64,000 nucleotides of DNA from a virus: positions 32,001 to 96,000 of IMG/VR virus record IMGVR_UViG_3300032224_001591; one strand, given 5' to 3'. Below are positions 23,087-43,651 of this stretch, piece after piece. Under the pieces are notes generated by a model, which saw only the letters and a program-made list of their open reading frames with translations, did no database searches and was not told the DNA's origin. Position 1 is the stretch's first letter; every line of letters starts with the position of its first letter. A program made the translations under genes and the position numbers.

Positions 23087-23087
23087 T

Positions 23088-23597: not shown

Positions 23598-24538
23598 TGG
23601 CTACTAAAGGAAGAACCCCCATACCTAAAACCCAAAGAGAAATAAGTGTAGGTTTACATACCTCTACAGATCCTCAAGCAGGTAATCCTAACTATTTTTA
23701 TGAATCTCCTAAAAATAATAGGGCGTTACAAACATCATTTAAAGGTGATACTGTAAAACCTTTTAGTATTGGTATTCAAGATATTGATGAGGCAATATTA
23801 TATTATTTTACAGAAGTAATCCAACCATTTGTAATTCAAAATGGACAAAGAATATCAGTACCTATATTATATGCGTCTCCTGAAAAATGGAAATCAATGC
23901 AAAAAGATGGATATTATAGAGATGCTAAAGGTGCTCCTATGTATCCTTTAATTGTATTTAAAAGAGATACTATTACTAAAAATAGAGCAATTGCTAATAA
24001 ATTAGATGCTAATAACCCAAACAATTTTGGTGTATTTACTAAAAAATATTCCATAAAAGACGCTTACTCTAATTTTCATGTACTAAATAATAGAACCCCA
24101 GAAAAAACGTATTATGCAACTATTATGCCTGATTACGTTACTATAGAATATAGTTGTACTATATTTACTTATTATATAGAACAACTAAATAAAATTGTAG
24201 AAGCAATCAACTATGCTTCTGATGCATATTGGGGAGATCCTCAACGTTTTAAATTCCAAGCTCGTATTGATTCATTTAATACAATTAGCGAATTATCAGA
24301 TAATGCTGAAAGAGCAGTAAAAAGCACGTTTAATATAAAATTATATGGTCATTTAATTCCTAGTATTTTACAAAAAGATATTAATTCTATTAAGAAATTT
24401 ACAGATAAAACTAAAGTAATATTCTCTTTAGAAGCTACAGCTAATGCCGCTATTCTTTCAGGTGAAATTAATTCAGATGGTACAGCAATGACAGCAACGC
24501 AAAAAGCAGCTCAAAGAAAAGCAACAGGATTATCATAG
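23597..24538 (+). CDS. Tail terminator/sheath stabiliser (T4 gp15-like)
   Basis: VPILYASPEKW, PLI, PDYVTIEY, EQLNKIVE; synteny. Confidence 0.65.
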   Translation: MATKGRTPIPKTQREISVGLHTSTDPQAGNPNYFYESPKNNRALQTSFKGDTVKPFSIGIQDIDEAILYYFTEVIQPFVIQNGQRISVPILYASPEKWKSMQKDGYYRDAKGAPMYPLIVFKRDTITKNRAIANKLDANNPNNFGVFTKKYSIKDAYSNFHVLNNRTPEKTYYATIMPDYVTIEYSCTIFTYYIEQLNKIVEAINYASDAYWGDPQRFKFQARIDSFNTISELSDNAERAVKSTFNIKLYGHLIPSILQKDINSIKKFTDKTKVIFSLEATANAAILSGEINSDGTAMTATQKAAQRKATGLS

Positions 24539-24587: not shown

Positions 24588-27329
24588 ATGGCTAGAGTTA
24601 GATTTTTAGACCAAGTCCCTGTTGGAGTATATGCGGTTGATGGAGCAACAGGTAGCGGTTCTGCCGGATTACCAGGTTCTTCAGGAACATCAGGCTCAAG
24701 TGGTTTAGCAGGAACTAGTGGTAGTTCAGGTCTTTCAGGTACTTCTGGTTCTTCAGGTTTATCAGGTACAGCAGGAACAACAGGAACATCAGGTTCAACT
24801 GGTACTTCAGGAAGTAGCGGAATAAACGGAACATCAGGCTCTTCAGGATTAAGTGGAACATCAGGTAGTTCAGGTTTAAGTGGTACAAGTGGTACTTCAG
24901 GATCTTCAGGTTCAACTGGTACTTCAGGTTCATCAGGAACTAGTGGTTCTTCAGGATTAAGCGGAACATCAGGTTCAAGCGGTTTAGCAGGAACTAGTGG
25001 TAGTTCAGGAATAACTCAAAATACAGGTTCATTATTAGTTACCGCATCTGCTGCAGGTAACGTAATTACTTTTACTAAAGGAGATACTTCAACATTTAAT
25101 GTTACTGTAGATACAGGTTCTACAGGTATTTTTGTCCAATCAGGATCTTCAAATGTATATTTTACTACTTCTTCTTTAAAAATTACAGGAAGTACACTAC
25201 AAACAGCTGGAGCTCCTCCTATAACAACTGTTGCTACTCAATCAGCAGGTAATAATTATGCTCTTGTAGTAAGTCAATCAGGATGGTTTTATAATGTTAA
25301 TGCCGGAGTACCAACATCAAATGCTTGGGGTACAAATTTATCTGGTTCTTATTTTAATAACTTTACAAGTAATACGGATGTTTCTGAAATTTTAAGATTT
25401 GTAGCGGGATTATTAAGTGCTTCAGCACCCGATGCTTCTCCAAATACAAGAACTTATAGTACTACTCTTACTGAGAATCAATTAAATAATGGAACAACTG
25501 CTTCCCCTTCTGGTTTTGTACCTCAATCAGCTACAAACTCAGATGTTACTTATTTAACAGTTAAAGGATTTGCACCTACCGGTTCAGCTTTATTTTCAGG
25601 TAAAACTATATATAGTAACTCAGCATTTTCAGCAAATTATTCAAGTATAGCTGCTGGTTCTACTCTAGTATCATCATCAGCAAACGCTCAATTATTTGGG
25701 TTAGGCCCTTTAACAAGTGGAGGTCCAACACAATTTAACGTTTCAGGAACAATTAACTGGTTCTATTCAGATAACAATAATGAAACTAGTACAGCTACTT
25801 CACAGTCTGAAAATATATTATCTCAATCATCTTTTGCAACAACAAATGGTTTAACATTAGCTAAAATTAATACAGCTAACCCATCTGTAATACCTGCAGC
25901 TTATCAAGATGGTTTATTTACTAACATTTATACTTCAAGTTTATATAATGGTGGCAGATCATTTACTAGTGTAAGTTCTTCAGGCTGGTATCATATTAGT
26001 TCTTCTATAAAGATATCTTCAGGAAGTTCAGCATACAGTACTCCTGCTACGGATAAATTAAGAATATTCTTTTCTCCAATAGGTAGTTTAACAATTCCAA
26101 ATAATACTTTAGCTTTAGGATATGCGGGTAATGCTCCAACAACAGCTACTTCACGTTCATTATCCGGAGCTCCTTATTTATTAACAGCTACTTGGGATAT
26201 TTCATCTTCAGTAACAGGATTATTTAGTCCTTTATATTATACTTCATCAACAATAGCCGATTTTAATAAATCAGATACTTTAATAACATTAGCAGGAACA
26301 ACAGCGGCTTCAACAGCTACGGGTACTGTTCAAACATCAAATGCTATTTATGATTCAACAGGTACAACTGCTAGAACAATTGGTACTATACCGTTTGAAA
26401 CAGATATAGTAAAACTTACCGGTTCATCAACATTTAATGCTGGTGCGGCTGGAGCTACTAATATTACTGTTAACTCAATATCACCAACAACATATTCTTT
26501 ATTAACAAGAGGTATAAATAAAAATGGTACTCAATCTACTGTAACTACTCAAACAATATCTTATTTTACCTCTGGTACTTTTTCACAACCTGTAGGTTCG
26601 GGTTCAATGGCTTATTATGGTAGAGCTCAAGGATATGATGGTGGTTCATTAACAGGTACTACAGAACAATTTAGTGGAGAAACATACAGACTTCAAATAA
26701 CAGGTTCTTTATTATCAGGATCATATGCTAATGGTACTAAATTTGTTACTGGCTCATATTCAGTTTATACTTTAGGTGCTTTAGACTTACAAGTAAAACC
26801 AGGATATTTAGTAAAACCATCAGGTTCTACAGCTAATGGATATTGGTTAGCAAACCCAAGTGAAGCTCAAACATACAAATATTATGCTAGAGCATTCCAA
26901 ACTAATGGAACTGTTTACAGTGCAATGACTATAAATGTAGGACAAACATTAACTCCATGGACTGGTTCAGCTAATAATGCTGTTTCTGTTTTAGTTATGT
27001 TTTCTTCTTCTGTAGCGGGTACTGCTATTCCTAGTGGTGGTGGTGCTACATTACCTAGAGCGGTTTTATTTGATCCAAGTGCATTGTCTAATTTATCAAT
27101 AGCAACCAATCAAGCACAAGATAATTTTTTAAATCCTTTTTCTTCATCAATTGATATAAAAGGAAATAACCAAGGAGGTTCAGGTCTTGTGGGAACTACA
27201 TATACTATTCCTCTTACTGATACTCTTAATCAATTATTAACATCTGTTTATAAAGATTTAATAGTTATGGTACGATATAATGGCCAACCAGCCACTCCAG
27301 TTTCAACAATAACCGTAGGATTTAGTTAA
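24588..27329 (+). CDS. Ser/Thr/Gly-rich virion fibre-associated protein with short Gly-X-Y tract
   Basis: 913 aa; about 110 aa of GSS/GTS repeats near the N-terminus. Confidence 0.7.
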   Translation: MARVRFLDQVPVGVYAVDGATGSGSAGLPGSSGTSGSSGLAGTSGSSGLSGTSGSSGLSGTAGTTGTSGSTGTSGSSGINGTSGSSGLSGTSGSSGLSGTSGTSGSSGSTGTSGSSGTSGSSGLSGTSGSSGLAGTSGSSGITQNTGSLLVTASAAGNVITFTKGDTSTFNVTVDTGSTGIFVQSGSSNVYFTTSSLKITGSTLQTAGAPPITTVATQSAGNNYALVVSQSGWFYNVNAGVPTSNAWGTNLSGSYFNNFTSNTDVSEILRFVAGLLSASAPDASPNTRTYSTTLTENQLNNGTTASPSGFVPQSATNSDVTYLTVKGFAPTGSALFSGKTIYSNSAFSANYSSIAAGSTLVSSSANAQLFGLGPLTSGGPTQFNVSGTINWFYSDNNNETSTATSQSENILSQSSFATTNGLTLAKINTANPSVIPAAYQDGLFTNIYTSSLYNGGRSFTSVSSSGWYHISSSIKISSGSSAYSTPATDKLRIFFSPIGSLTIPNNTLALGYAGNAPTTATSRSLSGAPYLLTATWDISSSVTGLFSPLYYTSSTIADFNKSDTLITLAGTTAASTATGTVQTSNAIYDSTGTTARTIGTIPFETDIVKLTGSSTFNAGAAGATNITVNSISPTTYSLLTRGINKNGTQSTVTTQTISYFTSGTFSQPVGSGSMAYYGRAQGYDGGSLTGTTEQFSGETYRLQITGSLLSGSYANGTKFVTGSYSVYTLGALDLQVKPGYLVKPSGSTANGYWLANPSEAQTYKYYARAFQTNGTVYSAMTINVGQTLTPWTGSANNAVSVLVMFSSSVAGTAIPSGGGATLPRAVLFDPSALSNLSIATNQAQDNFLNPFSSSIDIKGNNQGGSGLVGTTYTIPLTDTLNQLLTSVYKDLIVMVRYNGQPATPVSTITVGFS
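24673..25010 (+). repeat. Gly-X-Y (GSS/GTS/GLS) coding repeat
   Basis: Degenerate 9-bp period. Confidence 0.85.
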
Positions 27330-27340
27330 AGATAACATAA

Positions 27341-30300
27341 ATGGCATTTGATAAAAATATAAAATCGAGTAGATTACTCCAAAGTAAAAGATATACTGAA
27401 GCAACCTTTGACAGTCAGGAAGCTTATACATCGGTATTGGATATAAATGCTACGGAAATTTACACCCAACAAAATTTAATCCCATCATCAAGTATTCCAT
27501 ATTCAGGTTCTAGTCAAAATAATCTTTATATTACGATTTCGGGTTCAAATATTTTACAATACTTATACAGATTACCATTAACACCTGGTCCCGCTTCAGG
27601 AAGTGTGTACCCAGTTTGGTTTGCTATTAGTTCTTCTAATACAGCATCTGTATCTAATCAAGTAATACAAGCAAATCAATTAACAAGTTTCATATCTAAC
27701 AAATATGCTGTACCAACATTAGGTCCATATGATGCTGAATCCGCATCTCCTAATACAGCATATAACGTCGTTCTTACAACAGGTGCTACTTCAGGCTCAG
27801 CTACAGTAGTATCAGTTAATGACTATACTTTTGATTATAAGCAAGGTGTTTTAGAGTTTATACAAAATGAACCTTCAACATCTTCTAAATTATATCTTAC
27901 TGCTTATCGATATGTAGGACAAACTTTAGATCAATCCCTAACATCAGGCAGTGGTGGTAGTGGATTTCCTTTTACAGGTTCTGCACAAATTACAGGTTCA
28001 TTAGGTGTTACAGGTAGTGTAAATTTTAAAACATTACCGGCTCAAGATATAGTTACTATTGTAACATACAATACAGCATCCGGACAATTAGGATATGTAA
28101 ACGTTACCTCAGGTACAAGTGGATTTGCCGGTTCTTCAGGAACCGCAGGGATATCAGGTACAAGTGGAACTACAGGTTCTTCAGGTAGTTCAGGATCTAA
28201 CGGTGCAAGTGGATCAAGCGGCGTAGCAGGTACTTCAGGTACAACTGGTTCAAGTGGATCTTCAGGAGTAGCAGGACAAAGTGGATTATCGGCAACTAGT
28301 GGAACAGCAGGTTCTACTGGTTCTAATGGTTCAAGTGGTGCTGCTGGTTCAAGTGGTTTAAGTGCATTAAGTGGAACTTCAGGTTCAACAGGTTCAAATG
28401 GATCTTCAGGAGCAGCAGGACAAAGTGGCTTAAGCGCTACATCCGGTTCTTCTGGTTCTACGGGTTCTAACGGTTCTAGTGGAGTTGCAGGTTCAAGTGG
28501 TCTTTCGGCTTTAAGCGGAACTTCAGGTTCAACGGGTTCAAATGGTTCAAGCGGTGCTGCTGGAGCTTCAGGTTTAAGTGCAACTAGTGGAACTTCAGGT
28601 TCTACTGGTTCTACGGGTTCAAATGGTGCCGCGGGTCAAAGTGGCTTAAGCGCTACTTCAGGCTCATCAGGTTCGACAGGTTCAAATGGTTCTACTGGTG
28701 TCGCAGGCACTAGTGGAAATAGTAATACAGCTGGTACTTCGGGTTCAACCGGTTCAACCGGTTCTTCAGGAAATGCTGGTCAAAGTGGTTTAAGTGCAAC
28801 TTCAGGAACAAGTGGTTCTACAGGTTCTAATGGATCTGCAGGAGTTGCAGGATTAAGTTCAACTTCAGGCTCTTCAGGCTCTTCAGGATCATCAGGTTCT
28901 TCAGGTGTAGCAGGTCAAAGTGGCTTAAGCGCTACTTCAGGTTCATCAGGTTCTACAGGATCTAGTGGTTCTTCAGGTGCGGCAGGATCGAGTGGTTTAA
29001 GTGTACTTAGTGGAACTTCAGGATCTACAGGTTCAAATGGTTCAAGCGGTGCGGATGGACAAAGTGGTTTAAGCGCTACCTCAGGCACAGCTGGATCTTC
29101 AGGCTCAACTGGTTCAAATGGTGCAGCGGGTCAAAGTGGATTATCTGCTACTTCAGGTTCATCAGGTTCATCAGGTTCAAGTGGTAGTTCAGGTGTTGCT
29201 GGTTCAAGCGGAGCTTCTGCTTTATCAGGTACATCCGGTTCTACAGGATCTAATGGTTCTTCAGGAACTGATGGAGCTAGTGGTTTATCTGCAACTAGTG
29301 GAACTTCAGGTTCTACTGGTTCTAATGGTTCGGCTGGTGTAGCAGGCCAAAGTGCAACTTCAGGTTCATCGGGTTCATCAGGTTCATCAGGATCTTCAGG
29401 TGTAGCTGGTCAAAGTGGTTTATCTGCAACTTCAGGATCTTCCGGTTCAACAGGATCAAGTGGCTCTTCAGGTGTAGCAGGTTCAAGTGGTTTAAGTGCA
29501 ACTAGTGGAACAAGTGGTTCTACAGGTTCAAATGGTAGCTCAGGTTTAGCAGGAAATAGTGGTGCTAGTGCAACATCGGGAACTTCAGGATCTACAGGAT
29601 CTACTGGTTCTAATGGTGCCGCTGGTCAAAGCGGTTTATCAGCAACTTCAGGAACTTCAGGTTCATCCGGTTCAAATGGTTCAACAGGCGTTGCTGGAAC
29701 TTCAGGTAATAGCCAAACTTCAGGTTCATCCGGTTCTTCAGGATCAAATGGATCTTCAGGTAATGCTGGAGCTTCAGGTTTAAGTAATACATCTGGATCT
29801 TCAGGTTCTTCAGGTTCAAATGGATCTTCAGGTGTAGCGGGTTCAAGCGGTTTATCTGCTTTAAGTGGAACAAGTGGTTCTACAGGTACGAACGGATCTA
29901 GCGGAGATGCAGGTTCAAATGGTTTATCTGCTTTATCAGGAACTTCAGGTTCAACTGGTTCCAATGGATCTAGTGGAGCAGCAGGTTCAAATGGCTTATC
30001 TACTTTAAGTGGAACTTCAGGTTCAACAGGATCTAATGGTTCTTCAGGAGCTGCAGGTCAAAGTGGTTTAAGCGCAACTAGCGGAACAGCAGGTTCTGCT
30101 GGTTCTACAGGTTCAAATGGTGCCGCCGGTCAAAGCGGTTTAAGTTCAACATCAGGTTCTTCAGGTACTTCAGGTTCAAACGGATCTACAGGTAATGCTG
30201 GAACTTCAGGAAATAGTAATACAGCCGGAACATCCGGTTCAACAGGTTCTACAGGTTCATCAGGTATTGCTGGACAAAGCGGTTTATCAGCAACTAGTGG

Positions 30301-36300: not shown

Positions 36301-36913
36301 TGTAAATGGTACAACAGGTTCAAGTGGTGCTGCTGGTGGTAATGGAGCTAATGGTGCTAATGGTACAAGTGGAGTTAATGGTACAAATGGTACTTCAGGT
36401 GCGGCTGGTACAAGTGGACAATCAATTAATGGTACTTCAGGTATTAGTGGTGGTTCATTTACAAATCAACCAGATTATTTAGTTAGAACAACAAGTGCAA
36501 CACAAGTACAAAGTGTAAGTTTCTTAAAAGCGGATACAACAAACACTAGATTAGGTATTAATAATGCTTCACCGTCATATACATTAGATGTTGGAGGTGA
36601 TATATATGCATCTAATAATGTTATAGCTTATTCTGATGAAAGAGTTAAAGAAAATATTGTAACAATTAGCAATGCTTTAGATAAAGTTAAAAATCTTAGA
36701 GGTGTTAATTATACAAGAAAAGATATTAAAGACAAATCATTACAAATGGGTGTTATTGCACAAGAAGTTCAAAAAGTAATCCCAGAAGTAATATCTGTTA
36801 GAGAATCGGATGGTCATTTAGCTGTAGCCTATGCAAATATAGTTGGTTTATTAATTGAAGCAATAAAAGAACAACAAAAACAAATTGACGAGTTAAAAGT
36901 AAAATTAAAATAA
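27341..36913 (+). CDS. Giant (3190 aa) Gly-X-Y fibre protein with C-terminal peptidase-S74 intramolecular chaperone
   Basis: About 2780 aa of G-(S/T/A/N) triplets. C-terminal YSDERVKENI...GVIAQEV...VAYANIVGLLIEAIKEQQKQI is the S74 chaperone of trimeric fibres. Confidence 0.85.
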   Translation: MAFDKNIKSSRLLQSKRYTEATFDSQEAYTSVLDINATEIYTQQNLIPSSSIPYSGSSQNNLYITISGSNILQYLYRLPLTPGPASGSVYPVWFAISSSNTASVSNQVIQANQLTSFISNKYAVPTLGPYDAESASPNTAYNVVLTTGATSGSATVVSVNDYTFDYKQGVLEFIQNEPSTSSKLYLTAYRYVGQTLDQSLTSGSGGSGFPFTGSAQITGSLGVTGSVNFKTLPAQDIVTIVTYNTASGQLGYVNVTSGTSGFAGSSGTAGISGTSGTTGSSGSSGSNGASGSSGVAGTSGTTGSSGSSGVAGQSGLSATSGTAGSTGSNGSSGAAGSSGLSALSGTSGSTGSNGSSGAAGQSGLSATSGSSGSTGSNGSSGVAGSSGLSALSGTSGSTGSNGSSGAAGASGLSATSGTSGSTGSTGSNGAAGQSGLSATSGSSGSTGSNGSTGVAGTSGNSNTAGTSGSTGSTGSSGNAGQSGLSATSGTSGSTGSNGSAGVAGLSSTSGSSGSSGSSGSSGVAGQSGLSATSGSSGSTGSSGSSGAAGSSGLSVLSGTSGSTGSNGSSGADGQSGLSATSGTAGSSGSTGSNGAAGQSGLSATSGSSGSSGSSGSSGVAGSSGASALSGTSGSTGSNGSSGTDGASGLSATSGTSGSTGSNGSAGVAGQSATSGSSGSSGSSGSSGVAGQSGLSATSGSSGSTGSSGSSGVAGSSGLSATSGTSGSTGSNGSSGLAGNSGASATSGTSGSTGSTGSNGAAGQSGLSATSGTSGSSGSNGSTGVAGTSGNSQTSGSSGSSGSNGSSGNAGASGLSNTSGSSGSSGSNGSSGVAGSSGLSALSGTSGSTGTNGSSGDAGSNGLSALSGTSGSTGSNGSSGAAGSNGLSTLSGTSGSTGSNGSSGAAGQSGLSATSGTAGSAGSTGSNGAAGQSGLSSTSGSSGTSGSNGSTGNAGTSGNSNTAGTSGSTGSTGSSGIAGQSGLSATSGTSGSAGTTGSSGDAGNSGISGTNGTSGSSGTSGSTGASGNAGASGASASSGSTGSNGSSGAAGSSGLSSLSGTSGSTGTNGSSGIAGLSGASETSGTAGTSGSTGSNGIAGQSGLSATSGTSGSTGTNGSTGNAGTSGNSNTAGSSGTSGSSGSTGSAGVAGQSGLSATSGSSGSTGTSGSTGNAGSGGFSNTSGSSGSSGTSGETGTSGTSTYAASGTSGSGGSSGTSGELGSNGTSNISSTSGSSGSSGTTGSAGANGQSGASASSGSSGSTGSNGSSGNAGTSGNSFTSGTSGSTGSNGSAGIAGLSANSSTSGTSGSSGTSGSAGNAGQSNSSSTSGSSGSSGSSGSAGLAGASAASATSGTSGSSGSTGSNGASGQSGLSGTSGSSGSTGSNGSTGVAGTSGNSETSGTSGSSGSTGSAGAAGISGLSSTAGTSGSSGSNGSTGVSGTSGNSNTAGTSGSAGTNGSTGDAGLSGASATSGTSGTTGSTGSNGVAGQSGLSFTAGSSGSGGSNGSSGVAGTSGTSSATNSGTSGSSGSNGSSGNTGSNGLSALSGTSGSTGSNGSSGLSGNSGLSGTSGSTGSSGSNGNDGANGLSALSGTSGTSGSNGSSGNAGSSGLSASSGSSGSNGSSGNTGSNGLSALSGTSGSTGTNGSSGNAGSNGLSALSGTSGSTGSNGSSGAAGQSGLSATSGTSGSSGSTGVAGSSGLSATSGTTGSNGSSGVAGSNGLSALSGTAGSSGTTGSSGVAGASGTSSTSGTSGSTGTTGSNGNAGASGLSATSGSSGSTGSNGTSGNAGSAGASALSNTSGSSGSSGTSGSTGAAGASGASATSGTSGSTGSNGSNGVAALSGTAGSSGSNGSSGEAGTSGTSSGSVSGTSGSGGSSGTSGNAGSTGASALSATSGSSGSSGTTGSSGIAGGSGASATSGTSGTTGSNGTSGNAGSSGLSALSGTSGSTGSNGSSGAAGANGSSNISGTSGSSGSAGSNGNAGNNGASAVSGTSGSTGSNGSSGIAGSNGLSAFAGTSGSTGSNGSTGVAGTSGNSNTAGTSGSSGSNGTSGNAGSAGASALSNTSGSSGSSGTSGSTGAAGASAASASSGTSGSSGTSGNVGSNGLSALSGTSGSTGSNGSSGAAGASGLSATSGSSGTSGSSGTTGSTGASGSGAASGTSGTSGSTGSSGTGASGTSGLAGTSGTSGSTGSSGVAGASGLSRSSGTSGSTGSAGSNGVDGAIGLSGLSGSAGSSGSSGTTGNAGSVGASAASATSGSSGSSGSTGTSGSNGNAGASGNSNTSGTSGSTGTVGSSGAAGTSGNAGSSGASSTSGSTGTSGSNGASGNAATSGLSSTSGSSGTSGSTGTTGSAGAAGASGASALSGTSGSSGSNGTSGNGGSNGNAGTSGISNTSGSSGTSGSSGLNGGAGASGLSATSGTSGSSGSSGSNGNAGASGTSNISGTSGSTGSNGTSGNAGANGASAVSGTSGSTGSTGSNGAAGGNGASAVSGTSGSSGTTGSSGANGGAGTSGISNTAGTSGSTGTNGSSGAAGASGVSGLSGTSGTTGTTGSNGAAGGNGISNVSGTSGSSGSTGSSGNAGGNGASAVSGTSGTSGSNGTSGNAGANGVSNVSGTSGSSGSAGSNGAAGGNGVSNVSGTSGTTGSNGTNGNAGANGTSNISGTSGSSGSTGSSGAAGGNGASNISGTSGTTGSTGSSGNAGGSGTSNVSGTSGSTGSTGSSGNAGGNGASAVSGTSGTTGSSGSSGVSGANGGSGTSGVSGTNGSSGSAGISGANGGNGTSGVSGTNGTNGSNGTSGVNGVSGASGSSGTSGGSGTSGTTGSNGSSGGNGVAGASGASATSGSTGTNGSSGGNGVAGGSGVSATSGTTGSNGSSGNNGANGASGVSGVSGTNGTTGSNGANGGNGVNGASGTSGVNGTTGSNGAAGGNGVNGANGTSGVNGTTGSNGAAGGNGANGAGGTSGVNGSTGSNGAAGASGVNGAGGTSGVNGTTGSSGAAGGNGANGANGTSGVNGTNGTSGAAGTSGQSINGTSGISGGSFTNQPDYLVRTTSATQVQSVSFLKADTTNTRLGINNASPSYTLDVGGDIYASNNVIAYSDERVKENIVTISNALDKVKNLRGVNYTRKDIKDKSLQMGVIAQEVQKVIPEVISVRESDGHLAVAYANIVGLLIEAIKEQQKQIDELKVKLK
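28109..36453 (+). repeat. About 8.3-kb Gly-X-Y coding repeat with 24-aa (72-bp) super-period
   Basis: For example GLSATS-GTA-GST-GSN-GSS-GAA-GSS-GLSALS. Confidence 0.9.
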
Positions 36914-37542
36914 TGGCTGGTTTTAGTATATTAAATACAGGAAGAATAGCAGCATATACTGGTAGTGTATCTCACTCTATTAGTAATGCTTTCTTTCAAG
37001 ATACTAATGTACGTACTCAAAGTTTAGCTATATATAATGCTTATTATGGAAATTGGATATACAATAATGCAACTAATTTTTATATAAATAGAAATGATCC
37101 TAGTGGAAGAAATATGTATACTAATAATGTTATGACACAATATGGAGGATTTAGAACATATTCATATCAACATTGGGCGGATACAGTATACTATGAATTA
37201 AATATAAGTAATAATACTCCTGACGATATACAATTTACATGTAATGTAAAAGATGATCTTACTTCATATACAAATGTTTTTGATTATACACAATATGGAC
37301 CCGGTAATTACAATAGTGGATTAACATATAATGGTTTTACACCCGGAGCAGCTAATACAAAATTTACTTATCAACTTTTTGTAAGTAATTTAACTAATCC
37401 TAATACGTTTAATGTTGTATCAAACGTTTATGATTATGATTTTAATACTAACTATTATAATAATAATGATCCTTTAGATTTTAATGTTCAAATTTTAGCA
37501 GATTATTATGTTCCTCTTAGCTGGAATTTTGATATAAGTTAA
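36913..37542 (+). CDS. Asn/Tyr-rich fibre-associated protein
   Basis: 209-aa ORF coupled to the fibre gene by a TAATG overlap. Confidence 0.55.
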   Translation: MAGFSILNTGRIAAYTGSVSHSISNAFFQDTNVRTQSLAIYNAYYGNWIYNNATNFYINRNDPSGRNMYTNNVMTQYGGFRTYSYQHWADTVYYELNISNNTPDDIQFTCNVKDDLTSYTNVFDYTQYGPGNYNSGLTYNGFTPGAANTKFTYQLFVSNLTNPNTFNVVSNVYDYDFNTNYYNNNDPLDFNVQILADYYVPLSWNFDIS

Positions 37543-37543
37543 A

Positions 37544-37575
37544 TTTGGATTTTCAAAATAAATTTCATATATTTA
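37544..37575 (+). promoter_or_regulatory. Bacteroidota sigma-type promoter for the glycosyltransferase operon
   Basis: TTTG at 37544, 20-nt spacer, TATATTTA at 37568. Confidence 0.55.
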
Positions 37576-37594
37576 TTGGAAATACAATATTGTT

Positions 37595-40261
37595 ATGCAA
37601 AAACTGTTATACATTGCTCCGCACCTATCCACAGGCGGTTTACCGCAATACTTAACTAAAAAAATAGAATTACTTAAAGACGAATTTGATATTTACCTAG
37701 TTGAATGGGTAGATTGTACCGGGGGTAAGTTAGTTGTACAACGCAACAAAATTAAAAACTTACTTCCGGAGTCAAAATTCTATACATTATATGAAGATAA
37801 AACCGAATTATTTTCTATAATTAATAAAATACAACCTGACATCATACATTTAGAGGAAATCCCTGAAATGTTTATGGATACTAAGGTTGCTGAATTCATT
37901 TATGATCCAAGACGTAAATATAAAATTGTAGAAACGTCTCACGATTCGTCTTACGATACAACCCAAAAAACATTCTACCCTGACAAATTTATGTTTGTAT
38001 CTGATTGGCAAATAAACCAATATAAAGATATAAACATTCCTTCTGTCTTGGTTGAATATCCCATTGAATATATTAATCGTCCTGATAGAACAGAGGCGTT
38101 AAATAAATTAGGATTAGATCCTGAATATAAACATGTTTTACACATTGGTTTATTTACACCACGAAAGAATCAAAAAGAATTCTTTGAATATGCTCGTGCT
38201 TTAAAAGATGAAAAAATCATATTTCACTGTGTAGGTAATCAAGCAGATAACTTTAAATGGTATTGGGAACCACTAATGCAAGACAAACCAGAAAATGTTG
38301 TTTGGTGGAACGAAAGAACAGATGTTGAAAATTTCTATCAAGCAATGGATTTATTTTTGTTTACATCTCGTGGTACAGATCGAGATAAGGAAACAATGCC
38401 TTTAGTTATACGTGAAGCTATCTCAAATCAAATCCCTATTTTAATTTACAACTTACCAGTTTATTTAAATTACTTTAATAAATTTGATAAAATAAACTAT
38501 CTTAATTTTGATAATTTTAAATCTAACTGTAATAAAATATTATCAATGTTAGGTATAGGTAAAACTATTACAAATAAAGAAGAAGAAGTATTTGTTATTT
38601 CAACGTATCCAAAATCAGTAACTGTAATTAACTCAACTAAACAATGTATTGAAGCGGTTAAAAAAACAGGACGTAAAGTAATATTAACTTCTCACATTCC
38701 TATTCCTAAAGAATTAAGCGATATAGCAGATTATGTTATTTCGGACAATAATAATATCTTAACTAAACATTCATACTATTGTAATTATTGGTCTGATTAC
38801 CCTGAAGTTAAAATATACGTTAATTTAAGAGGTAATGACAATGATGTTTATCATGGTCCTACAGTTTATTCAAATTATAGTAACGGAGCAGCATTAGCGT
38901 TTGGTTTAGGATTTAAAAAAGCATTTTTCTTAAATTACGATTATATCCTTAAAAACGAGGAATTTGTAAATGAAGTATCTAAAGAATTAGAAACATCAGA
39001 TTTATATTTCGGAAAATATCAAGCACATGAAGGACCATGTTTATATACATTCTTCTATGCTGCAACTCCCGGACCATTTATAAGTGTAATTCCAAACATT
39101 TACAATGCTGATGATTACAATAAGTTACAATCAAGTTGGGGTAGTGAAAGTAATGGTTTAGAAAATATGTTCTACCATGCTTTTAAAAATACAGAAGACA
39201 TTTATTATGAAGATGGAGATGAATTTAATCGTAAGATAGAAAAAACATTTTATCATACCGATTTTTCACGAGTAGAATATTTTACAATACTACCAACAAA
39301 TATCCCAGATACCTTTGCTCCATTTATTAGAATATCTAATAGTAAAGAAGATAAAGAAATAAGATTATCAATATACAATAAAGAAGGTAAAGAAATTAAT
39401 TACGAATGGATTAGTGTAAATGGTAAAGTAGATTTTTATAAAATTTATCCATACGAAGAAGGACTAACAGTAGTATTTACTGTTTATGACAACGGAGATT
39501 TATCTGAGAAAAAAACATTTAAAGTAGAAAATTTACAAAATAATGGTTTATTAGAAATTAAAAACCTAAAACCAAAAATTAAGTTAATGCATTTAACTAC
39601 TGAACCGGAAACTAATCCAAAAGAAATCCGTTCTGTAGAAAATATAAAAGCGTTTTGTAATGAAATGGGTATTGGTTACGATTTAAGAATCAATAAAATA
39701 TGGACAGAAATGCCTCCAAAAGATACATGTAATCGCCCAGATGTAGTTCAAGAAAAACCAGGATATTATAAGTTAGCTGCCGGACATTATGGTTGTTACT
39801 TAGCACATAAAAACGCAATATGCGATGAAGACAACATTAACTATGATTACGTATTAATAGTAGAGGGCGACGTTGTTATCGATAGTGATTGGAATGAACT
39901 ATACGAATCTTTAAAACGATTTGCAATCATTTCAGCTGAAAAAGATATGGATGTTATGGGATTTGGAAATCCGTGGCAAGATAGAAATTTAAATGGTGGT
40001 AAATATAAAGATGTATTTTTAGATGTTACCCCATTTATACCGGCTCAATCATATTTAATTACAAAAGATAAAGTAGCAAAAATAAAACAACTATTAGAAA
40101 CAACACCTTGGGATGCTATTGACTTATGGATGTGCAACGTAGCAAGATTACGAATTGGTACAGCTGATAAAATATACACTAAACATCTTCCAGGTTTTAG
40201 TATAATAGAACAAACAATAAAAGACGCAAACACAGATAATCCATTAATATTTTTACAATAA
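37595..40261 (+). CDS. Multidomain glycosyltransferase (N-terminal GT-B/GT4-like, C-terminal GT25-like)
   Basis: HLSTGG, RKNQ, ETMPLVIREA; C-terminal GHYGCYLAH...VLIVEGDV. Confidence 0.8.
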   Translation: MQKLLYIAPHLSTGGLPQYLTKKIELLKDEFDIYLVEWVDCTGGKLVVQRNKIKNLLPESKFYTLYEDKTELFSIINKIQPDIIHLEEIPEMFMDTKVAEFIYDPRRKYKIVETSHDSSYDTTQKTFYPDKFMFVSDWQINQYKDINIPSVLVEYPIEYINRPDRTEALNKLGLDPEYKHVLHIGLFTPRKNQKEFFEYARALKDEKIIFHCVGNQADNFKWYWEPLMQDKPENVVWWNERTDVENFYQAMDLFLFTSRGTDRDKETMPLVIREAISNQIPILIYNLPVYLNYFNKFDKINYLNFDNFKSNCNKILSMLGIGKTITNKEEEVFVISTYPKSVTVINSTKQCIEAVKKTGRKVILTSHIPIPKELSDIADYVISDNNNILTKHSYYCNYWSDYPEVKIYVNLRGNDNDVYHGPTVYSNYSNGAALAFGLGFKKAFFLNYDYILKNEEFVNEVSKELETSDLYFGKYQAHEGPCLYTFFYAATPGPFISVIPNIYNADDYNKLQSSWGSESNGLENMFYHAFKNTEDIYYEDGDEFNRKIEKTFYHTDFSRVEYFTILPTNIPDTFAPFIRISNSKEDKEIRLSIYNKEGKEINYEWISVNGKVDFYKIYPYEEGLTVVFTVYDNGDLSEKKTFKVENLQNNGLLEIKNLKPKIKLMHLTTEPETNPKEIRSVENIKAFCNEMGIGYDLRINKIWTEMPPKDTCNRPDVVQEKPGYYKLAAGHYGCYLAHKNAICDEDNINYDYVLIVEGDVVIDSDWNELYESLKRFAIISAEKDMDVMGFGNPWQDRNLNGGKYKDVFLDVTPFIPAQSYLITKDKVAKIKQLLETTPWDAIDLWMCNVARLRIGTADKIYTKHLPGFSIIEQTIKDANTDNPLIFLQ

Positions 40262-41209
40262 ATGAAAATTTGCCAAGTACATCCAGGATGTGGTATTCCT
40301 GTCCCCCCAACAACGTGGGGCGCTATAGAAAAAATAGTATGGGAGTTTACTCAAAACTTAATTAAATTAGGACATGAAGTAGATATAAAATTTGTAAACG
40401 AAATTAATCCAGGTGATTATGATATAATACATTGTCACGTTGCTAATTTAGCAATCCAATTAGCTGAAAAAGGTATTCCTTATGTTTACCAATTACACGA
40501 TCATCATGCTTATCATTATGGTAAAGAATCTTATGTTTATAAAGAAAATTTAAAAGCAATAGATGGTTCAATTGTTGCTTTGATGCCTGCTAGATTTTTA
40601 GTAGATTATTTTGGACATTCAAAATGCGAATATTTTTCTCATGGTGTGAATACAGATGAATTTTATCCATTAGATTATAATATGATAAATCATAAATTAC
40701 TTTGCATTGCAAATAATGGTATGGCTGGACATTCAGGTAGAGATAGAAAAGGATTTTCTTATGCTATTGCGGCCGCTATACAAATGGATTTACCTATTAC
40801 AATAGCAGGACCAAGTAATAATAAATATTTCTTTAATGAAAATTTATGGACATTAGCTTATCCAAAATTAGAAATATTATTTGATGTTCAACAAAAAGAT
40901 TTAAATAAATTATATCAAGAACATACTATATTTTTACACCCAAGCGAATTAGAAGCAGGTCATCCAAATTTAACTATACTTGAAGCTGCAGCGTGTGGTT
41001 TACCGATTAATGGTTGGATTGAACATGCTACTGATTTTTATGGAATGTGGAGAGCACCTAGAGATGTTTTTGAAATAGTTCGTGGTCTTAAAGATATTAT
41101 TAATAATTATAAAACATACAAACAAAATGCACTTAACCATGCTCGATCATTATCATGGTTTAATCGTTCACAAGATTTAATAAAAGTATATGAAAGAAGT
41201 TTTAATTAA
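40262..41209 (+). CDS. GT4-family glycosyltransferase
   Basis: WGAIEK, GHEV, HGVN, RKG, EAGHPNLTILEAAACGLP. Confidence 0.85.
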   Translation: MKICQVHPGCGIPVPPTTWGAIEKIVWEFTQNLIKLGHEVDIKFVNEINPGDYDIIHCHVANLAIQLAEKGIPYVYQLHDHHAYHYGKESYVYKENLKAIDGSIVALMPARFLVDYFGHSKCEYFSHGVNTDEFYPLDYNMINHKLLCIANNGMAGHSGRDRKGFSYAIAAAIQMDLPITIAGPSNNKYFFNENLWTLAYPKLEILFDVQQKDLNKLYQEHTIFLHPSELEAGHPNLTILEAAACGLPINGWIEHATDFYGMWRAPRDVFEIVRGLKDIINNYKTYKQNALNHARSLSWFNRSQDLIKVYERSFN

Positions 41210-42395
41210 AGAATACAACAATACTCAACAGTTAAATATTCCTTCTAAAGAAGGATTAAACGGTGTTAGTTTTCATTTTATAGATGGAGCTTTTGTTGAA
41301 ATTATGGGACCTGAACATAAAATCTATGATATTACTTTTATTAATAGAAAAACAAATGAAGTAATTCATAAAACCACAATTAACAACAATATGTGGACTA
41401 AAACAAGTATAAAATATTTTGTCAATTGGCGTGTTGAAGTACGTGATGGTGATGATTTAGTATTTTTACATGAATACAATGCTAAAGGTAGAAAAGTTTA
41501 CATTCATTTAGATTCAAGTGCTATTGGTGATACTTTAGCTTGGTTTCCTTATCTTGAAGAATTTAAAAAAAAACATGATTGTCAATTAGTATGTTCTACA
41601 TTCCATAATGAATGGTTTGAATCACAATACCCCGAAATTGAATTTGTAAAACCAGGAACTGAAGTAGATGGTTTATATGCAATGTATACTATTGGGTGGT
41701 TTTATAATGAAGATCATACTGTAGATAAATTTAAAATTCCAATTGATTTTAAACAATATCCTTTAGGACAAACGTCTACAGAAATATTAGGATTAAATTA
41801 TACTGAGATTAAACCTAAATTATTAATACCTAATAAATCAAAACAAATTGATGGTAAATATGTTGTTATAGCTCCTCATGCTTCGGCACACGCTAAGTAT
41901 TGGAATCATCCTGGAGGATGGCAAGCTGTGATTAATTATCTGAATGATAAAGGTTATAAAGTAGTAATGATAACTTCTGAAAAATTATATAATCCGTGGC
42001 ATGATTCAAAATTAGGAGGAACATTAAAAAAAGTTATAGATAAAACAGGTAACTACCCACTTGAAGATAGAATGGTAGATTTAAAATACGCTGATTTATA
42101 TATTGGTTTAGGTAGTGGTTTAAGCTGGTTAAGTTGGAGTATAGGTACACCAACAATACTAATTTCAGGATTTAGTCAACCTTATAGCGAATTTTTAGAT
42201 TGTGAACGTATTTTTAATTATGATACTAATGTTTGTACGGGTTGTTTTAATACACATCGATTAGATGCGGGTGATTGGGAATGGTGTCCTGAACATAAAG
42301 ATACCGATAGAATGTTTGAATGTACTAAAACTATTACACCTTTTAAAGTAATAGGTGCAATTGATAAGCTTTTAAATATTTATGACAAAAATTAA
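41190..42395 (+). CDS. TibC/Aah-like autotransporter O-heptosyltransferase-family protein
   Basis: AIGDTLAWFPY..EF.KKH.C, KYWNHPGGW, IGLGSGLSWL, ILISGFS, and four-Cys CTGC...WCP.H...FEC iron-finger pattern. Confidence 0.85.
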   Translation: MKEVLIKEYNNTQQLNIPSKEGLNGVSFHFIDGAFVEIMGPEHKIYDITFINRKTNEVIHKTTINNNMWTKTSIKYFVNWRVEVRDGDDLVFLHEYNAKGRKVYIHLDSSAIGDTLAWFPYLEEFKKKHDCQLVCSTFHNEWFESQYPEIEFVKPGTEVDGLYAMYTIGWFYNEDHTVDKFKIPIDFKQYPLGQTSTEILGLNYTEIKPKLLIPNKSKQIDGKYVVIAPHASAHAKYWNHPGGWQAVINYLNDKGYKVVMITSEKLYNPWHDSKLGGTLKKVIDKTGNYPLEDRMVDLKYADLYIGLGSGLSWLSWSIGTPTILISGFSQPYSEFLDCERIFNYDTNVCTGCFNTHRLDAGDWEWCPEHKDTDRMFECTKTITPFKVIGAIDKLLNIYDKN

Positions 42396-43033
42396 TGGTA
42401 TATCCTTTATTAAGTAAAACCAATATTGTTAATTCAAACACTATTCAAGCCGCTGATGTTTCACAAAGTATTGATGCTTTTACCGGTACTACTGAATATC
42501 GAATTATAGTATCGGGTTCATTAAACATTAATGGAAGTGTTACATGTCTAGGACCTAATAGCAATGCTCAAGGTGGATTTACAGGCTCTCTTTATGGAAC
42601 TGCTTCCTATGCTGATGCTACAAGTTATGGATATGCTTATACTGGTTCTAACATTACTTCAGCTTCCTTTTCTTATAATTCGTCCTATACATCAGGAAGT
42701 TTACATGGATTTCTTGTTAGATCAGGTAGTGATAACCCTACAGCCTCTTTATATTCTATAGGAATACTTTCAGGTGTATCTTATATTCGTTCAGGAAATA
42801 TTTTACAAACTGTAAATTTTACTTCAACTCCCTTTCCTGCAGGAGCAATATTAGGAACAAATGTTTGGATTACTGTAGGTCAATTTAATACTCGACAAGT
42901 TTCTACAAATTGGAATAGTTATGTTTCCGTTCGTAGTATTACTACAAGTAGTATAACTTTTCAAACACGTACAAATAACGCAGCACCTTCAGATTTACCT
43001 TTTAATTTTATATGTGTTTATCAAACTTCTTAA
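42395..43033 (+). CDS. Short fibre/virion protein, paralog 1
   Basis: LSKTNIV...VSQSIDAFTG...GSLYGTASYA...VWITV...FNFI. Confidence 0.65.
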   Translation: MVYPLLSKTNIVNSNTIQAADVSQSIDAFTGTTEYRIIVSGSLNINGSVTCLGPNSNAQGGFTGSLYGTASYADATSYGYAYTGSNITSASFSYNSSYTSGSLHGFLVRSGSDNPTASLYSIGILSGVSYIRSGNILQTVNFTSTPFPAGAILGTNVWITVGQFNTRQVSTNWNSYVSVRSITTSSITFQTRTNNAAPSDLPFNFICVYQTS

Positions 43034-43039
43034 TAAATA

Positions 43040-43648: not shown

Positions 43649-43651
43649 ACA

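What the first reader, a model, noticed from the sequence alone, without database searches (positions are those of the whole stretch)
24588..42395. Candidate phage glyco-fibre system: giant Ser/Thr Gly-X-Y fibre next to three glycosyltransferases
Seen: a 3190-aa fibre with about 2780 aa of Ser/Thr-dense triplets and an S74 trimerisation chaperone. After one small gene come a GT4+GT25-like fusion, a GT4 and a TibC/Aah-like enzyme, all embedded between neck and sheath genes. Known: bacterial serine-rich repeat adhesins and autotransporters are O-glycosylated by adjacent GTs. Inference: the phage builds a heavily glycosylated, mucin-like filament, up to roughly 0.8 micron if fully extended at about 0.3 nm per residue. 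It could serve host capture, shielding or protease resistance.
Basis: partly seen in the sequence, partly recalled or inferred. Interest (0 to 1): 0.85.

Follow-up and report, generated by a model that had tools for sequence, protein, structure and literature searches.

The report
Phage collagen-like fibre with TibC-type glycosyltransferases
An uncultured 147-kb phage, probably of Flavobacteria, encodes a proline-free Gly-Ser/Thr collagen-like fibre that could reach about 0.8 micrometre, next to five sugar-transferase domains including a true relative of the E. coli adhesin-glycosylating enzyme TibC, so it most likely sugar-coats its own fibre, although nothing has been tested at the bench.

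Summary
ORF 27341-36913 encodes a 3190-aa protein. It has 2771 aa of in-phase Gly-X-Y with 0 Pro, 0 Lys and 44% Ser+Thr, and ends in a Peptidase_S74 chaperone. A second fibre (913 aa), one small gene, an 888-aa enzyme (GT4 plus two GT-A domains), a GT4 and a 401-aa TibC homologue complete the cassette between neck and sheath genes.

The TibC homologue passes NCBI's curated cutoff (TIGR04414, 343 vs 200 bits). It keeps the catalytic Asp, three of the four donor-binding residues (the fourth is Thr to Ser) and all four iron-finger Cys.

- 15 of 20 assessable lineages of phage TibC-like genes have a Ser/Thr-rich, Pro-poor Gly-X-Y ORF within 10 kb.
- 12 of 44 viral contigs picked only by a Gly-Ser/Thr triplet DNA pattern carry a TibC-like gene, against 4 of 50,697 cultured phage records.

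The related Flavobacterium phage immuto lacks both fibre and enzymes at this site. GT4 and TibC-like domains are fused in many lineages.

Glycosylation, the sugar, the triple helix and the role of the fibre all remain inferences. This scan has already noted the same pairing in at least 62 other genomes. I found no paper describing it.

The parts
21941..24538 (+). Conserved left border: head-tail adaptor (381 aa), p169 and p313
   Evidence: phrog_211 adaptor. All three are shared with Flavobacterium phage immuto at 39-49% identity.
24588..27329 (+). Second fibre, 913 aa: 20-aa N-terminus, about 125 aa of Gly-Ser/Thr-Ser triplets, then a 770-aa C-terminal part with 30% Ser+Thr
   Evidence: Pfam Collagen 59.9 bits; PHROG tail-fibre families; no PDB sequence match for the C-terminal part; no homologue in any related locus.
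27341..28111 (+). Giant fibre, N-terminal non-repeat domain (aa 1-257), presumed virion anchor
   Evidence: Only 4 relatives among proteins of similar length. No meaningful PDB sequence match: one hit at E 0.41.
28112..36424 (+). Giant fibre, Gly-X-Y region (aa 258-3028): Pro-free, nearly charge-free, 44% Ser+Thr, 24-aa super-period
   Evidence: There are 514 Ser-Gly/Ala sites.
36425..36631 (+). Giant fibre, short distal tip (aa 3029-3097) before the presumed autocleavage serine
   Evidence: Sequence. The cleavage position is inferred from the S74 family.
36632..36913 (+). Peptidase_S74 intramolecular trimerisation chaperone (aa 3098-3190)
   Evidence: PF13884, 59.2 bits vs cutoff 22.
36913..37542 (+). 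p209, unknown; not conserved in relatives
   Evidence: No Pfam, PHROG or NCBIfam hit. No tblastn hit in any locus.
37595..38557 (+). GT888 domain 1: GT-B fold, GT4-type glycosyltransferase (aa 1-321)
   Evidence: Pfam Glycos_transf_1 46.6 bits. AF2 model pLDDT 82.9. VIA Z 25.8 to HepE 4xsu, rmsd 2.9 over 295 residues.
38567..39427 (+). GT888 domain 2: GT-A fold (aa 325-611)
   Evidence: Model pLDDT 84.2. Glycogenin 1zcu Z 14.0, B4GALNT1 Z 13.9, LgtC Z 12.5.
39572..40216 (+). GT888 domain 3: GT-A fold, weakly GT25-like (aa 660-874)
   Evidence: Pfam GT25 16.4 bits, below the 24-bit cutoff. Mimivirus R655 Z 14.8, PBCV-1 A64R Z 13.5, beta-1,4-GalT 8xc8 Z 12.8. Tandem GT-A layout resembles COLGALT1 only loosely, TM 0.25-0.28.
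40262..41209 (+). GT315: GT4-type glycosyltransferase
   Evidence: Pfam Glycos_transf_1 31.7 bits. Conserved next to the TibC-like gene in relatives.
41190..42395 (+). TibC/Aah-family (BAHT) protein O-glycosyltransferase homologue, 401 aa
   Evidence: PDB 4RAP E 1e-63 over aa 17-394. TIGR04414 342.7 bits vs cutoff 200. D114, K236, R294, W313 and C349/352/366/378 conserved.
42395..44263 (+). Three paralogous Ser/Thr-rich proteins of about 200 aa (p212, p202, p203); variable accessories
   Evidence: 33-35% mutual identity. Present only in L004 among relatives.
44285..46725 (+). Conserved right border: p83 and tail sheath
   Evidence: Pfam sheath domains. Shared with immuto and with all close relatives.

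Best explanation
The stretch 24588-44263 is a swappable fibre cassette in the late structural operon of a myovirus that probably infects Flavobacteria. It encodes two collagen-like fibres and a soluble five-domain glycosylation line. Proposed mechanism, all inferred: while the 3190-aa chain is still unfolded, the TibC-family enzyme transfers a first sugar onto serines in x-Ser-Gly/Ala contexts of the Gly-X-Y repeats. That sugar is probably a heptose from a host ADP-heptose pool. The GT4 and GT-A domains then extend it. Folding cannot begin until the C-terminal S74 chaperone has been translated. That chaperone then trimerises the three chains, the helix zips towards the N-terminus, and the chaperone cuts itself off. 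The result would be a thin, flexible, sugar-coated filament of up to about 0.79 micrometre, anchored by its 257-aa N-terminal domain near the neck or tail. The repeat has neither proline nor salt bridges, so the glycans may also supply the helix stability. Shown here: the sequences, the family membership of the enzymes, conserved catalytic residues, gene order and co-occurrence. Inferred: the acceptor, the donor, the order of steps, the triple helix and the biological role.
For: 1) BAHT membership. PDB 4RAP E 1e-63 over the full length. TIGR04414 342.7 bits vs cutoff 200. Catalytic Asp110, donor-binding Lys230, Arg286 and Trp305, and all four iron-finger Cys are conserved.
2) Known TibC sites are serines, not threonines, in N-S-G-G and T-S-A-A contexts, and TibC modifies synthetic peptides directly (PMC4358343). 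The repeat offers 514 Ser-Gly/Ala sites.
3) Forward co-occurrence. Among TibC-like genes clustered at 60% identity, 15 of 20 assessable lineages have a Ser/Thr-rich, Pro-poor Gly-X-Y ORF within 10 kb. These sit on either side and either strand, which argues against simple inherited synteny. In jumbo phage G002 (271 kb) every listed collagen match lies 6-19 kb from the TibC-like gene; in G003 (253 kb) all lie within 8 kb of it.
4) Reverse co-occurrence. 12 of 44 contigs chosen only by a Gly-Ser/Thr DNA pattern carry a TibC-like gene, despite a median completeness near 20%. Only 4 of 50,697 cultured phage records do.
5) Natural control. Flavobacterium phage immuto shares both borders of the cassette but has no Gly-X-Y fibre and no GTs.
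6) Within the close clade the only conserved partners are fibre, GT888, GT315 and the TibC-like gene.
7) GT4 and TibC-like domains are fused in many lineages, including cultured Microcystis phage Mel-JY01.
8) All cassette proteins lack membrane segments, and the genes are packed on one strand with gaps of -20 to 59 nt.
9) The repeat has 0 Pro and 0 KGD/KGE. Viral collagen-like proteins normally rely on such salt bridges, and (Gly-Pro-Thr)10 folds only when the threonines are glycosylated (PMC11923368).
Against: No experiment shows glycosylation. The phage lacks GmhA, PfkB-type kinase, cytidylyltransferase-like and NTP_transferase genes, so it cannot make the donor itself. The residue that sets heptose stereochemistry (Pro300 in TibC, Ser294 in Aah) is Gly here, and the thumb tip that builds the TibC dodecamer does not align. 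TibC's known acceptor is a folded beta-helix, not a collagen-like chain. 5 of 20 lineages have no Gly-X-Y ORF within 10 kb; one of these clades has a non-collagen S74 fibre next door instead. Short Ser/Thr Gly-X-Y stretches occur in small, near-complete phages that have no TibC-like gene and no GT4. No random-contig background was measured for the forward test. The [ST]-[GA]-S motif is also enriched in the sheath and capsid proteins, so the fibre may not be the only target, or even the main one.
Confidence: 0.65

Rival explanations
1. The enzymes glycosylate other virion proteins (capsid insertion domain, sheath surface domains, the 913-aa fibre, the three small paralogues). The giant fibre is then a minor target or none. 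This would resemble capsid and tail-tube glycosylation in mycobacteriophages.
For: [ST]-[GA]-S is enriched over composition shuffles in the capsid protein (11 observed vs 1.9 expected, all within aa 134-284) and the sheath (16 vs 2.9). The GT-less relative immuto shows 3 vs 1.2 and 8 vs 2.7. Median z over 142 ORFs is -0.3. Five TibC-like lineages have no Gly-X-Y ORF nearby.
Against: The immuto sheath is also enriched (z 3.4), so the motif may simply be a strand-turn feature. Across the close clade the conserved neighbour of the enzymes is the S74 fibre, not these proteins. The fibre carries far more candidate serines.
Confidence: 0.12
2. The enzymes remodel the host envelope (LPS, capsule or S-layer) during infection to block superinfection. 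This is how glycosyltransferases in the host-recognition cluster of pelagimyophages were interpreted.
For: PMC7029224 reads such phage GTs as O-chain modifiers. GT4 and GT-A folds are common in LPS synthesis, and WaaG and LgtC are among the structural matches. A second sugar island elsewhere in the genome (GT2-like, RmlC-like, two SDR enzymes) would suit polysaccharide work.
Against: The TibC family is a cytoplasmic protein O-glycosyltransferase and this member passes the equivalog cutoff. There are no membrane segments and no flippase or Gtr-type partners. The genes lie inside the late structural operon and are gained and lost together with the fibre. The specific association with Ser/Thr Gly-X-Y ORFs is unexplained on this reading.
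Confidence: 0.12
3. The fibre is unmodified, either intrinsically disordered or a marginally stable helix, and the adjacency to the enzymes is a by-product of both sitting in a hypervariable cassette. Alternatively the enzymes modify phage DNA.
For: The region is a swap hotspot. T4 alpha-glucosyltransferase appears among the GT-B matches, Z 21.7. Short Ser/Thr Gly-X-Y stretches exist without GTs.
Against: Strict in-phase triplets over 2771 aa plus a trimerisation chaperone argue for a folded trimer. The pairing recurs in different gene orders, strands and phage types, including fusions. No DNA-metabolism genes lie nearby.
Confidence: 0.08

Closest known systems
TibC-TibA and Aah-AIDA-I of E. 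coli (bacterial autotransporter heptosyltransferases, BAHT; TIGR04414; PDB 4RAP/4RB4; PMC4358343)
   Same: Full-length homology, catalytic Asp, donor-binding Lys/Arg/Trp and four-Cys iron finger. Like those enzymes, it is a soluble cytoplasmic protein encoded beside a repetitive, serine-rich surface protein. Known acceptor serines are followed by Gly or Ala, as here.
   Different: The neighbour is a phage collagen-like fibre, not an autotransporter beta-helix. The stereoselectivity residue is Gly. The thumb tip is not alignable. The enzyme is accompanied by, and in other phages fused to, GT4 and GT-A domains, implying oligosaccharides rather than single heptoses. No heptose pathway is encoded in this phage.
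BclA of the Bacillus anthracis exosporium (glycosylated collagen-like Gly-Pro-Thr filament) and Riftia cuticle collagen (galactosylated threonine)
   Same: Collagen-like repeats whose hydroxyl residues carry O-glycans. Glycosylated Thr can replace hydroxyproline as a helix stabiliser (PMC11923368). The phage also carries RmlC-like and SDR genes, recalling (from my own knowledge) the rhamnose supply for BclA.
   Different: Those repeats contain proline in X and threonine in Y. This one is Pro-free and Ser-dominated, up to ten times longer, trimerised by an S74 chaperone, and paired with a different enzyme family.
Virion glycosylation in mycobacteriophages and in giant viruses (Mimivirus fibrils, PBCV-1 capsid)
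   Same: Virus-encoded glycosyltransferases decorate the virus's own structural proteins. The third domain of GT888 resembles Mimivirus R655 and PBCV-1 A64R in fold.
   Different: Different enzyme families and targets. In mycobacteriophages (from my own knowledge; cited in PMC11256854) the targets are the capsid and tail tube. No BAHT enzyme and no collagen-like acceptor is known there.
Serine-rich repeat adhesin glycosylation (GtfA/GtfB; SdgA/SdgB of staphylococci)
   Same: A GT4-fold enzyme glycosylates dense Ser repeats in the cytoplasm and further GTs extend the glycan. GtfA and SdgB are among the fold matches, Z 22.5-22.7.
   Different: These matches are no better than generic GT4 matches such as HepE and WaaG. 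There is no GtfB partner and no accessory Sec system.
Phage fibres and spikes ending in the Peptidase_S74 intramolecular chaperone (K1F endosialidase, T5 L-shaped fibre)
   Same: A C-terminal self-cleaving trimerisation domain.
   Different: Here it caps a 2771-aa collagen-like thread with only about 70 aa of distal tip, not a beta-helical spike or a large receptor-binding domain.

Membership tests
BAHT (TibC/Aah) family, TIGR04414 | Whole-protein score above NCBI's curated equivalog cutoff | tested here: met
   342.7 bits vs cutoff 200, profile positions 2-373 of 374. PDB 4RAP E 1e-63, aa 17-394 aligned to 15-386.
BAHT (TibC/Aah) family, TIGR04414 | Catalytic base Asp110 and donor-binding Thr226, Lys230, Arg286, Trp305 | tested here: met
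   D114, S232 (Thr to Ser), K236, R294 and W313, from the alignment, residues named in PMC4358343, positions checked.
BAHT (TibC/Aah) family, TIGR04414 | Four-cysteine iron finger (Cys339, 342, 358, 370) | tested here: met
   C349, C352, C366 and C378 align.
BAHT (TibC/Aah) family, TIGR04414 | Beta-hairpin thumb (Phe265/Val266) that builds the dodecamer | tested here: inconclusive
   The tip residues fall in an indel and cannot be aligned. The oligomeric state was not modelled.
BAHT (TibC/Aah) family, TIGR04414 | Acceptor is an adjacent autotransporter passenger beta-helix | tested here: not met
   No autotransporter in the cassette; the neighbours are collagen-like fibres. This concerns the substrate, not enzyme homology.
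BAHT (TibC/Aah) family, TIGR04414 | Transfers heptose from ADP-heptose to serine | not testable with these tools
   The stereoselectivity position is Gly308 (Pro in TibC, Ser in Aah). The phage has no heptose pathway. About 34 of 81 Flavobacteriales genomes sampled have a near-full-length rfaE domain I match at 257-334 bits, below the 345-bit cutoff.
Collagen triple helix (PF01391) | Long uninterrupted Gly-X-Y runs | tested here: met
   831.6 bits; 99 runs; 813 triplets.
Collagen triple helix (PF01391) | Known stabilisers: Pro/Hyp or Lys-Gly-Asp/Glu salt bridges | tested here: not met
   0 Pro, 0 Lys, 0 KGD/KGE in 2771 aa. PMC11923368 gives KGD as 13% of triplets in viral collagen-like proteins.
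Collagen triple helix (PF01391) | Actual triple-helix formation | not testable with these tools
   Needs circular dichroism or EM.
Peptidase_S74 intramolecular chaperone | C-terminal domain above the Pfam cutoff | tested here: met
   59.2 bits vs cutoff 22, aa 3098-3150.
GT25 (LPS beta-1,4-GalT / collagen galactosyltransferase COLGALT1) | Pfam PF01755 above the gathering score | tested here: not met
   16.4 bits vs cutoff 24, E 0.0086.
GT25 (LPS beta-1,4-GalT / collagen galactosyltransferase COLGALT1) | GT-A fold close to GT25 structures | tested here: inconclusive
   GT-A fold is clear (Z 12.8-14.8), but the GT25-type 8xc8 is tied with other GT-A families. COLGALT1 is the top Foldseek hit but with TM 0.25-0.28 and rmsd about 20.
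GT4 (GT-B retaining glycosyltransferases) | Pfam Glycos_transf_1 above cutoff and a GT-B fold | tested here: met
   46.6 and 31.7 bits vs cutoff 26.4. Z 25.8, rmsd 2.9 over 295 residues, for GT888 aa 1-321.

The most novel reading that the evidence does not exclude
O-glycosylation, started by a phage branch of the TibC family, is what lets a collagen fold that has no proline, no hydroxyproline and no salt bridges. This would be a third way of stabilising the triple helix, used by many aquatic phages to build sugar-coated threads approaching a micrometre that widen their reach for hosts.
Probability: 0.3. Interest if true: 0.85.

Novelty: new variant of a known kind. Interest (0 to 1): 0.7.

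Why it matters
If the reading is right, several things follow.

- The TibC/Aah family, known only as a virulence-linked modifier of autotransporter adhesins, would have a large phage branch with a different acceptor class. I counted 795 cluster representatives at E<=1e-30, mostly multi-domain fusions.
- Virion glycosylation would extend from mycobacteriophages and giant viruses to abundant aquatic myoviruses and jumbo phages.
- Collagen biology would gain a natural Pro-free, charge-free model in which glycans may supply helix stability.
- It also bears on how glycosyltransferases in phage 'host recognition clusters' are annotated; they are currently read as host-LPS modifiers.
- A cultured phage, Microcystis phage Mel-JY01, carries the pairing, so the idea can be tested directly at the bench.

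Tried and rejected
- Megablast of the GT region against cultured phages: no match.
- Single-protein scan of 185,579 species genomes: one locus only, a phage-like contig in a Flavobacteriales MAG. TIGR04414 was over the cutoff in 1 of 401 Bacteroidota genomes sampled, that same MAG, so I could not test whether bacterial members of this branch sit beside Gly-X-Y proteins.
The contexts of the 150 listed representatives could therefore not be read.
- Heptose-pathway genes in the phage: none found for SIS_2, CTP_transf_like, PfkB or NTP_transferase.
- p209, the small paralogues, the fibre N-terminus and the C-terminal part of the 913-aa fibre: no significant family or PDB sequence match.
- Atlas look-up of the GT888 middle domain: only unnamed viral clusters.
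- Literature searches for TibC or heptosyltransferase together with phage or collagen-like fibres found no paper on this pairing. Mel-JY01 is not in the held library.
- The specific 'GT25/COLGALT1-like' reading was considered and downgraded to 'tandem GT-A domains'.
- I did not measure a random-contig background for the forward co-occurrence test.

Full report
WHAT IS THERE

The window is bases 32001-96000 of a 147,248-bp IMG/VR viral contig, 93% complete. All 142 ORFs called lie on one strand. It is a myovirus. In order it carries terminase, portal, major capsid protein (18962-20689), PhoH, head-tail adaptor (21941-23086), sheath (44596-46725), tube and baseplate hub.

The closest cultured phages by capsid protein are Flavobacterium phage vB_FspM_immuto (55% identity) and Microcystis phage Mel-JY01 (49%). 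GC content near 30% and a 58%-identical copy of the TibC-like gene in a Flavobacteriales MAG contig point to a Flavobacteria host. This is an inference.

ORF 27341-36913 gives 3190 aa. It scores Pfam Collagen 831.6 bits and has a Peptidase_S74 chaperone at aa 3098-3150.

The repeat, aa 258-3028 (2771 aa), has this composition:
- 880 Ser, 349 Thr and 844 Gly.
- No Pro and no Lys.
- 13 charged residues in all.

The commonest triplets are GSS (18%), GTS (16%), GST (10%) and GSN (9.5%).

Runs of seven triplets are followed by one in-phase triplet in which Gly is replaced by Ala, Asn or Ser. This gives a 24-aa unit (68 of 98 spacings), seen as a diverged 72-nt tandem array in the DNA. 94 of 98 interruptions keep the triplet phase.

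At 0.286 nm per residue the repeat would span 0.79 micrometre as a triple helix. Only about 70 aa separate the repeat from the S74 domain, so the mature distal tip is very small.

The stretch begins with a second fibre (24588-27329, 913 aa). It has about 125 aa of the same kind of triplets and a 770-aa C-terminal part with 30% Ser+Thr.

THE ENZYMES

The 401-aa protein (41190-42395) is a full-length TibC homologue: PDB 4RAP, E 1e-63, aa 17-394 aligned to 15-386. It passes NCBI's equivalog model TIGR04414 at 342.7 bits against a cutoff of 200.

I mapped the residues named in the TibC structure paper (PMC4358343):
- The catalytic base Asp110 is D114.
- Lys230, Arg286 and Trp305 are K236, R294 and W313.
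- Thr226 is Ser.
- The four iron-finger cysteines are C349, C352, C366 and C378.
- The stereoselectivity position (Pro300 in TibC, Ser294 in Aah) is Gly308.
- The thumb tip that builds the dodecamer falls in an indel.

GT888 (37595-40261) folds with mean pLDDT 82.9 (whole protein) and 84.2 (C-terminal half). It has three catalytic-type domains:
- A GT-B/GT4 domain, aa 1-321, with Z 25.8 to HepE.
- A GT-A domain, aa 325-611, with glycogenin at Z 14.0.
- A second GT-A domain, aa 660-874, with Mimivirus R655 at Z 14.8, PBCV-1 A64R at 13.5 and a beta-1,4-galactosyltransferase at 12.8.

The Pfam GT25 hit is below threshold. The Foldseek resemblance to human collagen galactosyltransferase COLGALT1 reflects a tandem GT-A layout only, with TM 0.25-0.28. 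I therefore do not file the domain under GT25.

GT315 is a GT4. That makes five glycosyltransferase domains in the cassette. None of the cassette proteins has a membrane segment, and the genes are packed with gaps of -20 to 59 nt.

THE CASSETTE IS A UNIT

Phage immuto shares the left border (adaptor, p169, p313) and the right border (p83, sheath). Between them it has other 'tail fiber' genes, no Gly-X-Y and no glycosyltransferase.

In the close clade of environmental relatives (63-89% TibC-like identity) the order is fibre with S74 end, GT888, GT315, TibC-like, p83, sheath. The other cassette genes are not conserved: p209 and the 913-aa fibre are found nowhere else, and the three small paralogues occur only in L004.

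The fibre evolves fast while the enzymes do not. L004 has a 97%-identical GT888 but a 1461-aa fibre whose C-terminus is only 56% identical.

CO-OCCURRENCE, FORWARD

Three scans of viral contigs gave 163 loci with TibC-like genes at 34-89% identity to this one. I clustered the enzymes at 60% identity. Of 20 assessable lineages, 15 (13 uniformly positive, 2 mixed) have an ORF within 10 kb with at least 90 aa of Gly-X-Y, at least 40% Ser+Thr and at most 5% Pro. These ORFs lie upstream or downstream, on either strand. Some are huge: L103 at least 2854 aa, L115 2569 aa, L110 at least 2479 aa.

Whole-contig searches of five large phages gave:
- G002 (271 kb): every listed collagen match lies at 81-94 kb, including a 3730-aa frame, with the TibC-like gene at about 100 kb.
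- G003 (253 kb): collagen matches lie at 59.5-61.8 and 69.7-70.0 kb, around the enzyme at about 62-63 kb.
- G001 (373 kb): most collagen matches are within about 8 kb of the enzyme, with a second site near 343 kb.
- G004: the two are far apart.
- G005: the collagen-like frame (4590 aa) is 47 kb from the enzyme.

The largest 'negative' clade (for example L144) instead has a non-collagen fibre of at least 2463 aa with an S74 end. It lies directly upstream of a GT4 fusion that also matches the third domain of GT888, then a TibC-like gene. After those come what looks by eye like a PfkB-type sugar kinase and a protein opening with a nucleotidyltransferase motif; I did not run these two against a family library.

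In cultured Mel-JY01 a Gly-X-Y ORF of at least 1016 aa (40% Ser+Thr) lies at the start of the record. GenBank annotates it as two minus-strand hypothetical genes. Downstream of it lie a structural protein and a 1234-aa GT4-TibC-like fusion. GT4-TibC-like fusions occur in many other lineages.

CO-OCCURRENCE, REVERSE

A DNA pattern for six Gly-Ser/Thr-Ser/Thr triplets picked more than 120 stretches of viral contigs without reference to any enzyme. Of the 44 contigs that could be searched, 12 (27%) carry a TIGR04414-type gene at E<=1e-10, and 10 of these are over the cutoff. The median completeness of these contigs is about 20%. Among stretches with five or more pattern matches the figure is 7 of 18. 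For scale, only 4 of 50,697 cultured phage records have any match to the enzyme.

There are exceptions. Three near-complete phages or proviruses of 46-58 kb, each with a single pattern match, have neither a TibC-like gene nor a GT4. A 148-kb contig has GT4 genes but no TibC-like gene.

WHY GLYCOSYLATION OF THE FIBRE IS THE BEST READING

- TibC modifies serines, not threonines, in N-S-G-G and T-S-A-A contexts, and it works on synthetic peptides. The repeat offers 514 Ser-Gly/Ala sites.
- Viral collagen-like proteins normally depend on Lys-Gly-Asp/Glu salt bridges.
- (Gly-Pro-Thr)10 folds only when its threonines are glycosylated (PMC11923368).
- This repeat has neither proline nor lysine, so a glycan contribution to stability is plausible. 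That is an inference.

Trimerisation starts at the C-terminal chaperone. The chain therefore stays unfolded until translation ends, which would give soluble enzymes access. This too is an inference.

THE DONOR IS OPEN

The phage lacks heptose-pathway genes. About 34 of 81 Flavobacteriales genomes sampled, including the MAG above, have a near-full-length match to the heptose kinase domain at 257-334 bits, just under the 345-bit cutoff. Host supply is therefore possible.

Outside the window (L300:2892-7301) the phage carries a GT2-like gene, an RmlC-like epimerase and two SDR dehydratase/reductase-type genes. This suggests it tailors a deoxy sugar of its own.

RIVALS

A host-LPS role, as proposed for pelagimyophage glycosyltransferases (PMC7029224), does not fit three things: the protein-specific enzyme family, the absence of membrane partners, and the specific link to Ser/Thr Gly-X-Y genes.

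A wider virion target set cannot be excluded. The GT-less immuto sheath is also enriched (8 vs 2.7), so this remains inconclusive.

STANDING

This scan has already reported the same pairing in at least 62 other genomes. Those notes are unchecked and I do not count them as evidence; my own tests agree with them. I found no paper describing the pairing.

Virion glycosylation, glycosylated collagen-like filaments and BAHT enzymes are each known. The combination is a new variant of a known kind. What this window adds:
- a clean cassette boundary against a cultured relative;
- a five-domain enzyme set;
- the 24-aa super-period;
- a pointer to a cultured phage in which the idea can be tested.

Noticed in passing
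L082:2-3049 (Microcystis phage Mel-JY01, PP395634.1): A plus-strand Gly-X-Y ORF of at least 1016 aa (40% Ser+Thr) is annotated in GenBank as two minus-strand hypothetical CDS (1-651 and 739-2298). It runs off the record start, so it may continue at the other end of the genome.
   Followed up: partly
window 42395-44263: Three tandem paralogues of about 200 aa (33-35% identity, 25-29% Ser+Thr) with a shared N-terminal motif. They are present only in the closest relative, L004. Function unknown; possibly small fibres or further glycosylation targets.
   Followed up: partly
L300:2892-7301 (G000:C1:132891-137300, outside the window): A second sugar island: a GT2-like gene, an RmlC-like 3,5-epimerase (126.6 bits, below the 155.75 cutoff) and two SDR epimerase/dehydratase/reductase genes, one resembling GDP-fucose synthase. 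Together these look like a deoxy-sugar nucleotide pathway.
   Followed up: partly
window 18962-20689 and 44596-46725: [ST]-[GA]-S tripeptides are enriched over composition shuffles in the capsid protein (11 vs 1.9, all in aa 134-284) and the sheath (16 vs 2.9). The GT-less phage immuto shows 3 vs 1.2 and 8 vs 2.7. This may be a sequon or merely a strand-turn motif.
   Followed up: partly
L144:7779-17084: In a clade without Gly-X-Y nearby, the TibC-like gene is followed by what looks by eye like a PfkB-type sugar kinase (248 aa) and a 1472-aa protein opening with a nucleotidyltransferase HxGH-type motif. Neither was run against a family library. This suggests phage-encoded heptose activation there. 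The upstream fibre (at least 2463 aa) ends in an S74 domain.
   Followed up: no
window 32365-36144 (minus strand): A 1259-aa ORF on the opposite strand of the repeat. It is a by-product of the triplet repeat, not a gene. Gene callers can mis-annotate such frames, as happened in Mel-JY01.
   Followed up: yes
L004:1588-9072: A relative with a 97%-identical GT888 has a fibre of only 1461 aa, with a 56%-identical C-terminus and no detectable similarity to this fibre's N-terminal domain. Fibre length and ends turn over much faster than the enzymes.
   Followed up: partly
(protein representatives): The TibC-like family has 795 cluster representatives at E<=1e-30. Most of the top 150 are 600-2000-aa multi-domain fusions, and some contain two to four matched stretches.
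   Followed up: no
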